Program-made: the position numbers
Shown: positions 21,001 to 24,000 of the stretch, one piece after another
Layout: each line of letters starts with the position of its first letter
Numbering within the stretch: position 1 is the stretch's first letter
NCBI RefSeq assembly: GCF_013167455.1
Contig: NZ_CP038328.1
Strand: one strand, 5' to 3'
DNA length: 64,000 nucleotides
Origin: Escherichia coli O157:H7
GTDB taxonomy: Bacteria; Pseudomonadota; Gammaproteobacteria; Enterobacterales; Enterobacteriaceae

Positions 21001-24000
21001 CGCGGAAATTTACTACGGTACTAACCCACTGGCCTTTGCCGCGCCGGGAGAAGGCGACGAGATCCTTACCTTTGATATGGCGACTACCGTACAGGCATGG
21101 GGAAAAGTCCTCGACGCCCGCTCGCGTAATATGTCTATCCCGGATACCTGGGCGGTCGATAAAAACGGTGCACCAACAACCGATCCGTTCGCGGTACATG
21201 CTCTGCTCCCCGCAGCCGGGCCGAAAGGGTATGGCCTGATGATGATGATTGACGTCCTCTCAGGCGTCTTACTCGGCTTACCGTTCGGGCGACAGGTTAG
21301 TTCGATGTATGACGATTTACACGCCGGGCGTAATTTGGGGCAATTACATGTAGTTATTAACCCGAACTTTTTCTCCTCCAGCGAATTATTCCGTCAACAT
21401 CTTAGCCAGACCATGCGCGAATTAAATGCCATTACCCCCGCGCCCGGTTTTAATCAGGTTTATTATCCCGGACAGGATCAGGATATTAAACAACGCCAAG
21501 CCGCCGTCGAAGGCATCGAAATTGTTGATGATATTTACCAGTATTTAATTTCCGACGCGCTTTATAACACGTCATACGAAACGAAAAATCCCTTTGCGCA
21601 ATAATTATTGAGACAGGACTTTCTTATGATTACACATTTTCGTCAAACCATAGAAGAAGCGCTGCCCTGGCTTTCCTCTTTTGGCGCTGACCCAGCGGGT
21701 GGGATGACCCGTTTACTTTATTCGCCGGAATGGCTGGAAACCCAGCAGCAATTAAAAAAAAGAATGGCCGCAAGTGGGCTGGAAACACGTTTCGATGAAG
21801 TGGGGAATTTATACGGTCGCCTGAGTGGCACCGAATATCCACAGGAAGTGATTCTGAGCGGTTCGCATATCGATACCGTGGTTAACGGCGGTAACCTCGA
21901 CGGGCAATTCGGCGCGCTGGCGGCGCGGCTGGCAATTGACTGGCTGAAAACTCAATACGGCGCACCGCTGCGTACGGTTGAAGTGGTGGCGATGGCGGAA
22001 GAAGAAGGTAGCCGCTTCCCGTATGTTTTCTGGGGCAGTAAAAATATCTTTGGGCTGGCGAATCCTGACGACGTGCGGAATATCTGTGATGCCAAAGGAA
22101 ATAGTTTTGTCGATGCGATGAAGGCTTGCGGATTTACTCTGCCGGACGCCCCGCTAACTCCGCGTCAGGATATTAAAGCCTTTGTCGAACTGCATATCGA
22201 ACAGGGCTGTGTGCTGGAAAGTAATGGGCAATCAATTGGCGTGGTGAATGCAATTGTCGGGCAACGTCGCTATACGGTGACGCTGAACGGCGAATCAAAC
22301 CATGCAGGCACCACGCCGATGGGTTATCGTCGTGATACGGTTTACGCTTTCAGTCGCATTTGCCATCAGTCGATCGAAAAAGCGAAAAAGATGGGCGATC
22401 CGCTGGTTCTGACCTTTGGGAAAGTAGAGCCGCGCCCGAATACGGTGAATGTGGTGCCGGGTAAAACCACGTTCACCATTGATTGTCGTCATACCGACGC
22501 CGCCGTGCTGCGTGATTTCACCCAACAGTTAGAAAACGACATGCGGGCGATTTGCGATGAAATGGACATTCGTATTGATATCGATTTATGGATGGACGAA
22601 GAACCCGTGCCGATGAATAAGGACCTGGTCGCCCCCCTGACAGAATTGTGTGAAAGTGAAAAACTGAATTACCGGGTGATGCACAGTGGTGCCGGGCACG
22701 ACGCGCAAATTTTCGCGCCTCGCGTACCAACCTGCATGATTTTTATCCCCAGCATCAACGGGATCAGCCATAACCCGGCGGAACGCACCAATATTACCGA
22801 CCTTGCCGAAGGGGTCAAAACGTTGGCACTCATGCTTTATCAACTTGCCTGGCAGAAATAAGGAGTCATAAATGGGATATTTAAATAACGTCACCGGTTA
22901 CCGCGATGATTTACTGGCTAACCGTGCGATTGTGAAACACGGTAATTTCGCACTGTTAACACCAGACGGTCTGGTAAAAAATATTATTCCGGGCTTTGAA
23001 AATTGTGACGCGACAATCCTCTCCACGCCAAAGCTGGGTGCCTCTTTTGTTGATTATCTGGTCACACTGCATCAAAACGGCGGCAACCAACAGGGCTTCG
23101 GTGGCGAAGGCATTGAAACGTTCCTGTATGTGATCTCTGGAAATATCACTGCCAAAGCCGAAGGCAAAACATTTTCCTTAAGCGAAGGTGGCTATCTTTA
23201 TTGCCCGCCTGGCTCCTTAATGACGTTTGTTAACGCCCAGGCCGAAGACAGCCAAATCTTTTTATATAAGCGCCGCTATGTTCCGGTAGAAGGCTATGCA
23301 CCGTGGCTGGTTTCTGGCAATGCCAGCGAACTGGAACGCATTCACTATGAAGGTATGGATGATGTGATCCTGCTGGATTTCCTGCCCAAAGAGTTAGGTT
23401 TTGATATGAACATGCATATCCTTTCTTTTGCACCAGGTGCCAGCCACGGTTATATCGAAACACATGTTCAGGAACACGGTGCCTATATTCTTTCCGGTCA
23501 GGGGGTTTATAACCTCGACAATAACTGGATCCCGGTGAAAAAAGGCGATTACATCTTTATGGGCGCTTATTCTTTACAGGCTGGTTATGGCGTAGGGCGT
23601 GGTGAAGCGTTCAGCTATATTTACTCGAAAGATTGTAACCGCGACGTAGAGATTTAAGTCATACCACTCGCCTGATTATTTTTAGCTATGTTGGATTTTG
23701 CCACGGTTTATACCGTGGCTTTTTTTGCAACATAGCCTGATGCGCTTCGCTTATCAGGCCTACATGATCTCTGCAATATATAGAATTTGCGCGATTTTCA
23801 GGAAGGATATGGTACTCATGCCGCATCCGGCATGAGTACTGCACTCTTATGCGATATAAATCGCATCCGCTTTAAAGGTAAGGGTCAGTTTTTAATTCCC
23901 TGACCTATTTTAATGGCGCAGGCAATATTTCGCGCGCTGTTGAAGAGATTGGTTTCACCGCTGGCGAGCACTTCGGCTAAAGGTGCCAGACGTGGCAAAA

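What the first reader, a model, noticed from the sequence alone, without database searches (positions are those of the whole stretch)
23812..23839. Perfect 12-bp-stem hairpin between convergent allE and glxK
GTACTCATGCCG-CATC-CGGCATGAGTAC is a perfect inverted repeat with a 4-nt loop, lying between the allE terminator and the glxK stop. It lacks a clear T-tract, so it may act as an RNA-stability or processing element or as a protein-binding site rather than a simple terminator. REP-like sequence (GCCTGATGCG…TTATCAGGCCTACA) lies just upstream.
Basis: seen in the sequence. Interest (0 to 1): 0.2.

Follow-up and report, generated by a model that had tools for sequence, protein, structure and literature searches.

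The report
Remodelled REP hairpin in decayed BIME-1
The perfect hairpin is real, but it is the reshaped remnant of one arm of a common E. coli repeat element (a BIME-1 pair of REP sequences) that sits where the glxK terminator's T-run lies in other strains, so it is an ordinary element with a mildly interesting history.

Summary
The 12-bp-stem, 4-nt-loop inverted repeat at 23812-23839 is exactly as described and far beyond chance: -19.7 and -21.2 kcal/mol, z about -7.7, and one such repeat seen against 0.04 expected in 64 kb. It is not a stand-alone element. The hairpin is the inner half of that y REP paired with the tail, in a register 12 nt from the canonical REP stem. Seven substitutions from the family consensus all improve pairing (9/12 to 12/12, P about 1e-5 if random). 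That fits quasipalindrome template-switch correction, or selection. The hairpin occurs only at this locus. The block is present in about 44% of 5,426 E. coli genomes and at least one other Escherichia lineage. In short alleles the same spot holds the T-run of a canonical glxK terminator, which long alleles lack. The likely role is a passive REP-like 3' stem-loop on glxK mRNA; this is untested. Known kind, low interest.

The parts
23700..23726 (+). allE intrinsic terminator (stem GCCACGGT/ACCGTGGC, loop TTAT, then T7). It is present in all alleles and outgroups.
   Evidence: scanner; conserved in all alleles and in Klebsiella, Citrobacter and Raoultella
23729..23848 (.). Polymorphic block of about 120 bp: one BIME-1 (RIB/RIP) repeat element. 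It stands in place of about 22 bp (TAGTAAATTCAGGTAAAAAAAG) found in short alleles.
   Evidence: long versus short allele; 2,360 of 5,426 genomes hold the full stretch; median 39 family matches per genome, capped; alignment with 7 siblings
23735..23763 (+). Intact z1-type REP (GCCTGATGCGCTTCGCTTATCAGGCCTAC; the GTAG foot reads on the - strand).
   Evidence: nearly invariant across 8 copies; BIME-1 = z1 + y. The z1 assignment follows from the architecture and my own knowledge of REP types.
23764..23798 (.). BIME-1 long linker L. The IHF-like core at 23774-23786 (- strand ATTCTATATATTG) carries one more mismatch than the siblings (TCAA changed to TCTA).
   Evidence: Rfam ES036, 23756-23798 on the - strand, 38.1 bits against a gathering score of 37.6; (IHF consensus scan)
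23799..23832 (+). Decayed y-type REP. The family sequence GTAGGCCGGATAAGGCGTTCACGCCGCATCCGGCA reads here CAGGAAGGATATGGTACTCATGCCGCATCCGGCA. The GTAG foot and the outer stem arm are lost; the inner 13 nt (GCCGCATCCGGCA) are intact.
   Evidence: alignment; (folds of the family and of this copy)
23812..23839 (.). The finding: a perfect 12-bp hairpin built from the y-REP apex and inner arm (left) and the y-REP end plus the family tail (right). A 13th pair, 23811/23840, is G.U in O157 and K-12 and A-T in other alleles.
23833..23848 (+). Family 'tail' downstream of the y REP (family TGAACAAAGCACACTT; here TGAGTACTGCACTCTT). Its first 7 nt form the outer right arm of the hairpin.
23849..23866 (-). 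Relic stem of the ancestral glxK intrinsic terminator (ATGCGAT-TTAT-ATCGCAT on the glxK strand). In short alleles it is followed by CTTTTTTT; here the T-run is replaced by the BIME block. In other long alleles it is decaying (3 substitutions in 18 nt).
   Evidence: flagged as a - strand terminator in L001; not flagged here; 77% paired, decay
23885..23887 (-). glxK stop codon. The hairpin lies 45-73 nt into the glxK 3' untranslated region.
23664..23730 (-). Rfam STnc480 match, overlapping the allE terminator. It is a context feature and not part of the hairpin.
   Evidence: 85.8 bits against a gathering score of 72

Best explanation
The hairpin is the remodelled y-type REP of a single-copy BIME-1 (RIB/RIP) element lying between convergent allE and glxK. 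The element consists of a z1 REP, the L linker and a y REP.

Shown:
- The block at 23729-23848 aligns end to end with sibling BIME-1 copies.
- In this copy the y REP has lost its GTAG foot and its outer arm.
- The inner REP arm now pairs with the downstream tail, in a register 12 nt from the canonical REP stem.
- All seven differences from the family consensus in these 28 nt raise complementarity, from 9/12 to 12/12.
- The hairpin is unique to this locus.
- The block is present or absent among E. coli strains. Short alleles carry, at the same spot, the T-run of a canonical glxK terminator, and long alleles have no glxK-strand terminator.

Inferred:
- The perfection arose mainly through quasipalindrome template switching during replication, in which one arm is copied from the other. 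The family consensus already holds a 9/10 quasipalindrome there.
- In RNA, the stem-loop sits in the glxK 3' UTR and acts the way REPs do, as a passive barrier to 3'-5' exonucleases and perhaps a weak transcription attenuator. It partly stands in for the disabled terminator.
- It probably has no dedicated regulatory or protein-binding role. As DNA it should no longer be a TnpA(REP) substrate.
For: Family membership:
- Median of 39 family matches per genome, capped.
- Alignment with 7 siblings at other loci, next to cycA, yjiR, yhjE-yhjG, uspB-pitA and yhaC among others.
- Rfam ES036 hit on the linker.
- Published BIME-1 definition (PMC3333891).

Remodelling:
- Family consensus 9/12 paired; this copy 12/12.
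- The 7 substitutions include two pairs changed on both sides and three mismatch repairs, with none disruptive. Random expectation is about 1e-5.

Copy-specific:
- The 46-nt and 33-nt probes hit only this locus in 2,076 and 2,371 genomes. No sibling shares either arm.

Terminator displacement:
-.
- Outgroups: Superficieibacter and the short E. coli alleles have their own glxK hairpin plus T-run. In Klebsiella, Raoultella and Citrobacter the glxK stop abuts the allE hairpin.

Template switching is an established E. coli mechanism that makes quasipalindromes perfect (PMC7202029), and it has been proposed to explain the over-conservation of perfect inverted repeats (PMC5941160).

glxK-sense RNA hint:
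- The common variant GAGTAC to GAGCAC is a G.U wobble on the glxK strand (-22.8 kcal/mol, unchanged) but an A.C mismatch on the other strand (-16.6).
- Escherichia sp. E1V33 completes the change to G-C.
- The hairpin stays 96.9% paired while the adjacent relic stem decays to 77%.

TnpA(REP) needs GTAG and an imperfect stem, and a perfect-palindrome REP mutant is neither bound nor cleaved.
Against: - No transcript 3'-end, RNA half-life or binding data for this site could be found, so every functional statement is inference.
- Covariation rests on one pair in five distinct sequences and is not significant: 212 of 500 shuffles do as well.
- E1V33 also carries a disruptive C to A change at pair 11.
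- Both arms differ from the family consensus, so a single template switch still requires 3-4 earlier substitutions in the template arm. No intermediate allele was found to document the order of events.
- The block is absent from about 56% of E. coli genomes, so any function is dispensable.
- An intact y REP folds about as stably (-23 kcal/mol), so remodelling brings no obvious RNA-level gain.
Confidence: 0.6

Rival explanations
1. Adaptive RNA element. After the BIME insertion removed the U-tract of the glxK terminator, selection reshaped the decayed REP step by step into a maximally stable stem-loop. That stem-loop now defines and protects the glxK mRNA 3' end, or serves as a processing site.
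For: All 7 changes favour pairing. The A-U to G.U to G-C path is seen on the glxK-sense strand. The hairpin is perfect in most of the long-allele genomes, roughly 2,085 of 2,371 as I infer from the identity bands. The neighbouring relic terminator stem decays while the hairpin does not. Long alleles have no glxK-strand terminator.
Against: Covariation is not significant. E1V33 has one disruptive change. An intact y REP would be equally stable, so a selective driver for re-registering is unclear. The sequence of the hairpin is not more conserved than its flanks: 3 of 28 positions differ in E1V33, against 0 of 33 in the linker. The element is absent from more than half of strains. Template switching produces the same pattern without selection.
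Confidence: 0.2
2. Transcription terminator. The hairpin ends glxK transcription, or acts in both directions for allE read-through, despite the poor U-tract.
For: The stem is strong and G+C-containing. It lies 45 nt past the glxK stop, in an allele that has no other glxK-strand terminator. BIMEs have been reported to attenuate transcription (Espeli et al. 2001, cited in the reference list read; the paper itself was not read).
Against: The tails are CATATCCTTCCT on the glxK strand and TGCACTCTTATG on the + strand, with no U-run. The hairpin is not flagged by the scanner on either strand. allE has its own canonical terminator upstream of the hairpin.
Confidence: 0.1
3. DNA-level protein site. 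The 12-4-12 palindrome is an operator for a dimeric regulator, or a site for a nucleoid or repeat-associated protein (IHF, gyrase, Pol I, TnpA(REP)).
For: It has perfect dyad symmetry. BIMEs are known to bind IHF, gyrase and Pol I (PMC3333891 introduction).
Against: The palindrome derives from a repeat element and exists only in strains with the insertion. It lies at the 3' ends of both genes, away from promoters. IHF binds the linker, not the REP, and the IHF core here is further degraded. TnpA(REP) needs GTAG and a stem mismatch, both lost here. No data exist for any other protein.
Confidence: 0.05
4. Chance palindrome with no history or function.
For: None beyond the fact that short inverted repeats occur at random.
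Against: 0.04 expected per window. z is about -7.7. Homology to the y REP is clear. About 1e-5 chance that 7 random substitutions perfect the stem.
Confidence: 0.02

Closest known systems
BIME-1 / RIB / RIP elements of E. coli (z1 REP, long linker L with IHF site, y REP; Gilson, Bachellier, Hofnung; Boccard and Prentki 1993; Oppenheim 1993)
   Same: Same three-part architecture and sequence, 78-85% identical to siblings over about 105-120 nt. Single copy at the locus, lying at the 3' ends of convergent transcription units. The linker matches Rfam ES036.
   Different: The y REP has lost GTAG and its outer arm, and it folds in a shifted register as a perfect palindrome. The IHF core has an extra mismatch. 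This copy occupies the place of a terminator's T-run.
Canonical REP / palindromic unit as an mRNA 3' stabiliser (Newbury et al. 1987; my own knowledge, supported by the PMC3333891 introduction)
   Same: A stable stem-loop (about -21 kcal/mol) in a 3' UTR with no U-tract. It is derived from a REP and shares its 13-nt core GCCGCATCCGGCA.
   Different: The stem is perfect, without the characteristic internal mismatch. There is no GTAG/CTAC foot, and half of the stem comes from non-REP tail sequence. Its function is untested.
Quasipalindrome template-switch mutation hotspots (Ripley 1982; Dutra and Lovett 2006; PMC7202029) and over-conserved perfect inverted repeats (PMC5941160)
   Same: An imperfect inverted repeat (9/12 in the family consensus) has become perfect through clustered, complementary multi-base changes (CGT to TAC opposite ACA to GTA).
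   Different: This is a natural, fixed, polymorphic example inferred from comparison, not an observed mutation event. Both arms differ from the ancestor, so one switch alone does not explain everything.
Rho-independent terminators
   Same: A G+C-containing hairpin just downstream of a stop codon, between convergent genes.
   Different: No U-tract on either strand. The true glxK terminator of short alleles is the adjacent stem, which lost its T-run.

Membership tests
BIME-1 (RIB/RIP) | A z1-type REP with a GTAG/CTAC foot | tested here: met
   23735-23763 GCCTGATGCGCTTCGCTTATCAGGCCTAC is nearly identical to 7 siblings.
BIME-1 (RIB/RIP) | A long, well-conserved L linker between the two REPs | tested here: met
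   23764-23798 aligns with the siblings. Rfam ES036 scores 38.1 bits against a gathering score of 37.6. Definition from PMC3333891.
BIME-1 (RIB/RIP) | An IHF binding site in L (consensus WATCAANNNNTTR) | tested here: inconclusive
   Six of the seven siblings have 1 mismatch to the consensus at the linker site and one has 2. This copy has 2, with the core TCAA changed to TCTA. Actual binding cannot be tested here.
BIME-1 (RIB/RIP) | An intact y-type REP in inverse orientation (GTAG foot plus an imperfect palindrome) | tested here: not met
   GTAGGCCGG reads CAGGAAGG. The outer arm cannot pair, and only the inner 13 nt are conserved. This is a decayed member by descent, not an intact one.
BIME-1 (RIB/RIP) | [quoted passage not shown] | tested here: met
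   One element between the convergent allE and glxK stops.
REP as a TnpA(REP)/RAYT substrate | A conserved GTAG 5' of the stem and a non-complementary position in the stem | tested here: not met
   The hairpin has no GTAG and a perfect stem. Both features are required for binding and cleavage (PMC3333891).
Intrinsic (Rho-independent) terminator | A G+C-rich stem-loop directly followed by a U-tract | tested here: not met
   The stem is present, but neither strand has a T-run, and the scanner does not flag it.
Rfam naRNA4 (REP325-type Y-l-Z2 RNA) | A covariance-model score at or above the gathering threshold | tested here: not met
   16.9 bits against 59.5 at 23801-23867.
Structured RNA under selection | Significant covariation supporting the helix | tested here: inconclusive
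   One pair is changed on both sides, and cells are 96.9% paired. But 212 of 500 shuffles do as well, with only 5 distinct sequences.

The most novel reading that the evidence does not exclude
The hairpin is a natural case of exaptation. A decayed REP, perfected by template switching, has been retained as the functional 3'-end or stability determinant of glxK mRNA in the roughly 44% of E. coli strains whose native glxK terminator was disabled by the BIME insertion. Long-allele and short-allele strains would then differ in glxK expression, and in antisense read-through into allE.
Probability: 0.15. Interest if true: 0.4.

Novelty: new member of a known kind. Interest (0 to 1): 0.2.

Why it matters
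The practical point concerns annotation. The hairpin should be read as part of a BIME-1 repeat, not as an independent regulatory element. The locus also gives a compact natural example of three things:
- a repeat insertion that disables an intrinsic terminator by taking the place of its T-run;
- a REP that loses the features needed by its transposase (GTAG and the stem mismatch) while gaining a perfect palindrome in a new register;
- a presence/absence polymorphism, about 44% against 56% of strains, that supplies ready-made natural alleles for testing what REP-type hairpins do to a 3' UTR.

None of this changes current understanding of REP/BIME biology.

Tried and rejected
- **Literature searches:** STnc480, glxK + Term-seq and ES036/CssrF (only unrelated hits) gave nothing usable.
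- **Supplementary tables:** the REP catalogues and the IHF ChIP study hold no text or no match for this site. Boccard and Prentki 1993 is not held.
- **K-12 annotation:** the MG1655 RefSeq record as served lists no REP or repeat features anywhere in 49 kb. It therefore cannot say whether this copy was catalogued before.
- **Other Rfam matches over the hairpin:** naRNA4 and MIR2646 score far below threshold and were rejected.
- **My own errors:** the second helix was given one column out of register, so only (glxK sense) is used for the relic terminator stem. An early side note said the STnc480-like module occurs where the upstream gene is not allE. That was wrong: in Raoultella the upstream gene is allE, with a longer spacer.
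- **H127:** this hit looked like a possible intermediate allele but is an IS1 insertion.
- **TTCAGG match:** the motif is shared by the short allele and the decayed y arm. I considered it a sign of two separate insertions and judged it more likely chance or microhomology, because the arm aligns better with the family (about 74%).
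Full report
**1. The observation**

The sequence GTACTCATGCCG-CATC-CGGCATGAGTAC is at 23812-23839, with 12 of 12 complementary positions and a 4-nt loop. As RNA it folds at -19.7 kcal/mol on the + strand and -21.2 on the - strand. The z-scores are -7.6 and -7.8, and none of 200 dinucleotide shuffles folds as well. It is the longest perfect short-loop inverted repeat in the 64-kb window: one with a stem of at least 12 bp was observed, against a mean of 0.04 in 100 shuffles.

The window is E. coli O157:H7, with 100% identity. The genes are allD, allC and allE on the + strand and glxK and ybbY on the - strand. The allE terminator is at 23700-23726 and the glxK stop codon at 23885-23887. 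Neither strand has a T-run after the hairpin, and the terminator scanner does not flag it. In K-12 MG1655 the hairpin is at 543079-543106.

**2. What it belongs to**

Every genome that lacks this locus copy still has siblings that cover at least 80% of the stretch. I fetched seven siblings from other loci: downstream of cycA, yhaC and a glycosyltransferase gene, next to two Rpn-family genes, and between yhjE-yhjG and uspB-pitA. I aligned them with this copy.

The family consensus has four parts:
- a short z-type REP, GCCTGATGCGCTACGCTTATCAGGCCTAC;
- a conserved linker of about 35 nt, AT.ATCTCTGCAATATATTGAATTTGCG.G.TTTT;
- an inverted y-type REP, GTAGGCCGGATAAGGCGTTCACGCCGCATCCGGCA;
- a shared tail, TGAACAAAGCACACTTTG.

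This is the published BIME-1 architecture: z1 and y REPs in inverse orientation, single copy, separated by a long, well-conserved linker L that frequently carries an IHF site (PMC3333891). These elements are also called RIB or RIP. The linker independently matches Rfam ES036 just above its gathering score (38.1 against 37.6 bits).

**3. How this copy differs**

The z1 REP (23735-23763) and the linker are intact. The one exception is that the IHF-like core reads ATTCTATATATTG. That is 2 mismatches to WATCAANNNNTTR, with TCAA changed to TCTA, where six of the seven siblings have 1.

The y REP is decayed. Its GTAG foot and outer arm, GTAGGCCGGATAAGG, read CAGGAAGGATATGG, so the canonical REP stem can no longer form. 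The inner 13 nt, GCCGCATCCGGCA, are unchanged. The hairpin pairs GTACTCATGCCG (family GCGTTCACGCCG, the REP apex and inner arm) with CGGCATGAGTAC (family CGGCATGAACAA, the REP end plus tail). Its centre is 12 nt from the canonical REP loop.

In that register the family consensus is already a quasipalindrome with 9 of 12 pairs. This copy differs from the consensus at 7 of the 28 positions, and every difference raises complementarity:
- two pairs are changed on both sides (G-C to A-T, and T-A to C-G);
- three mismatches are repaired;
- nothing is broken.

Seven random substitutions achieve a perfect stem about once in 100,000 trials.

The result is specific to this locus. A 46-nt probe across the hairpin and a 33-nt probe of its right half plus tail hit only this locus, in 2,076 and 2,371 genomes, at a median of one place per genome. 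The second search also reported a 19-nt exact match, so a sibling sharing 19 nt or more of that probe in the roughly 3,000 genomes without the long allele should have been listed, and none was.

**4. The locus is polymorphic and the block displaced a terminator**

Only 2,360 of 5,426 complete E. coli genomes carry the full 261-bp spacer. I found three other allele types.
- **Short allele L001.** It has TAGTAAATTCAGGTAAAAAAAG in place of 23729-23848. On the glxK strand the stem GATGCGAT-TTAT-ATCGCATC is followed directly by TTTTTTT, and the scanner calls this a terminator.
- **Short allele L017.** It has CGGATGC...GCATCCG followed by T6. The scanner did not flag it because the loop is 10 nt.
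- **E. coli E69 (L020).** It has both hairpins, separated by a different insertion of about 90 nt.

In the long allele the same stem survives at 23849-23866 but is followed by AAGAGTGCAGTAC..., and no glxK-strand terminator is detected.

The outgroups support the short state as ancestral. Superficieibacter has its own glxK hairpin plus T6 next to GGTAAAAAAG. In Klebsiella, Raoultella and Citrobacter the glxK stop abuts the allE hairpin. The long allele also occurs in Escherichia sp. E1V33, and judging by its first bases in E. whittamii. It is therefore either old or has moved by recombination.

**5. Variation in the hairpin**

Five divergent long alleles from E. coli and the E1V33 copy were compared.
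- **O157 and K-12:** 12/12 pairs plus a G.U 13th pair.
- **L012, L013, L015:** 13/13 pairs.
- **L014, L016:** they carry GAGTAC changed to GAGCAC. This is an A.C mismatch in + strand RNA (-16.6 kcal/mol) but a G.U wobble in glxK-sense RNA (-22.8, unchanged). By my reading of the identity bands, roughly 280 genomes carry it.
- **E1V33:** it has the matching change in the other arm (GTGCTC...GAGCAC), which completes A-U to G.U to G-C on the glxK strand. It also has a disruptive C to A change at pair 11.

The formal count gives 96.9% of cells paired and one pair changed on both sides. With only five distinct sequences this is not significant, since 212 of 500 shuffles do as well.

The relic terminator stem next door has taken 3 substitutions in 18 nt in these alleles and is only 77% paired. 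The hairpin's sequence as such is not more conserved than its flanks.

**6. Mechanism**

*Shown:* descent from a BIME-1 y REP; the register shift; the all-pro-pairing substitution pattern; uniqueness to this locus; the presence/absence polymorphism; and the loss of the glxK T-run.

*Inferred origin:* quasipalindrome template switching. In this process a stalled nascent strand copies one arm from the other and so makes an imperfect inverted repeat perfect in one step. It is well documented in E. coli (PMC7202029) and has been proposed to explain the over-conservation of perfect inverted repeats in proteobacteria (PMC5941160). It explains why clustered changes such as CGT to TAC lie opposite ACA to GTA. 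The 3-4 differences needed beforehand in the template arm are in line with this copy's overall divergence of about 20% from its siblings.

*Inferred function:* on the glxK transcript the stem-loop lies 45-73 nt past the stop codon, in an allele without a terminator. It would behave as REPs are reported to, that is, as an mRNA stabiliser and transcription attenuator (roles listed in PMC3333891). Most allE transcripts should end upstream, at the allE terminator.

*At the DNA level:* the relic should no longer be a TnpA(REP) substrate. That enzyme needs the GTAG foot and a mismatch in the stem, and a REP mutated into a perfect palindrome was neither bound nor cleaved.

**7. Rivals**

- **Stepwise selection for a glxK 3' stabiliser or end-definer.** The G.U path, and the contrast with the decaying relic stem, favour it. 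The lack of significance, the disruptive E1V33 change, the equal stability of an intact y REP (-23 kcal/mol) and the element's absence from 56% of strains weaken it.
- **A true terminator.** This is unlikely without a U-tract.
- **A protein operator.** It has no support.
- **Chance.** It is excluded.

**8. Comparison and novelty**

The element is a decayed member of a long-known repeat family. The mutational process invoked is also known. What may be new is the description of this particular copy: a y REP re-registered into a perfect palindrome, and the displacement of the glxK terminator's T-run as a strain polymorphism. I could not establish whether earlier REP catalogues list this copy. The K-12 record as served shows no repeat features at all, and the relevant supplements are not held.

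Verdict: a real feature, explained, and of low interest.

Noticed in passing
window 23664-23730 (- strand per Rfam); loci L018, L019, L025-L028: Rfam STnc480 matches above threshold (85.8 against 72 bits), overlapping the allE terminator. The module TTTAGCTATGTTGGATTTTGCCACGG..CCGTGGC+T-run is conserved from E. coli to Klebsiella, Raoultella, Citrobacter and Superficieibacter, which is unusually well for intergenic DNA. Rfam orients it in the glxK sense, where it has no terminator. On the + strand it has the layout of a 3'UTR-derived sRNA of allE: a conserved stretch, then the terminator hairpin, then a U-tail. The strand and the function are unresolved, and no literature on it was found.
   Followed up: partly
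L029 (E. coli MLI104K1, NZ_CP116923.1) 200-320; equivalent to window ~23834: An IS1B element is inserted inside the right arm of the hairpin. The IS1 end ...GGAGTCATTACC is followed directly by GAGTACTGCACTCTT, so this strain has lost the hairpin.
   Followed up: partly
L020 (E. coli E69, CP089930.1), allE-glxK spacer: A fourth allele. It has two copies of the glxK terminator-like hairpin (GATGCGGGATAAAATGCATC and GATGCGATATGAACCGCATC) separated by a different insertion of about 90 nt containing CCCCTCGCCCCTTTGGGGAGAGGGG. This spacer appears to be a hotspot for small repeat insertions.
   Followed up: no
L021 (MAG 'Sporobacter termitidis' bin60, JAJUHI010000052.1): A contig assigned to a Firmicutes MAG carries a glxK 3' end and the STnc480-like module, both closely similar to the Klebsiella and Raoultella sequences. 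This is probably misbinning or contamination. The Sporomusa sp. KB1 hit (L022) shares only the 20-mer and looks like a chance match.
   Followed up: no
window 49950-49977: A perfect 11-bp inverted repeat with a 6-nt loop (AACGTTTTGGT-CGCTAT-ACCAAAACGTT) lies inside a 305-aa ORF (49856-50773, + strand). It is the second-longest perfect short-loop inverted repeat in the window, and it is in coding sequence.
   Followed up: no
window 10943-10966 and 48235-48260; also 15466-15477 and 51298-51309: Other REP-type sequences are present. Two are perfect 10-bp inverted repeats built on CCGGATGCG...CGCATCCGG, and two are exact GCCGGATGCGGC y-REP heads. The window carries several REP elements besides this BIME-1.
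   Followed up: no
window 23704-23675 (- strand): A sigma-70-like match (GTGGCA, 18 nt, AATAAT; 9 of 12) lies inside the STnc480 region and is present in all alleles examined. Its frequency is at chance level.
   Followed up: no
window 23849-23866 compared with L012-L016 and L023: The relic glxK terminator stem is intact in O157 and K-12 (ATGCGAT/ATCGCAT). In another long-allele lineage it carries three substitutions (ATACGAA/ATAGCAT), consistent with decay after loss of its T-run. Flank polymorphisms (GGTAAGGGTCAG against GGCAAGAGTCAG) are shared between long and short alleles, which suggests recombination among alleles.
   Followed up: partly
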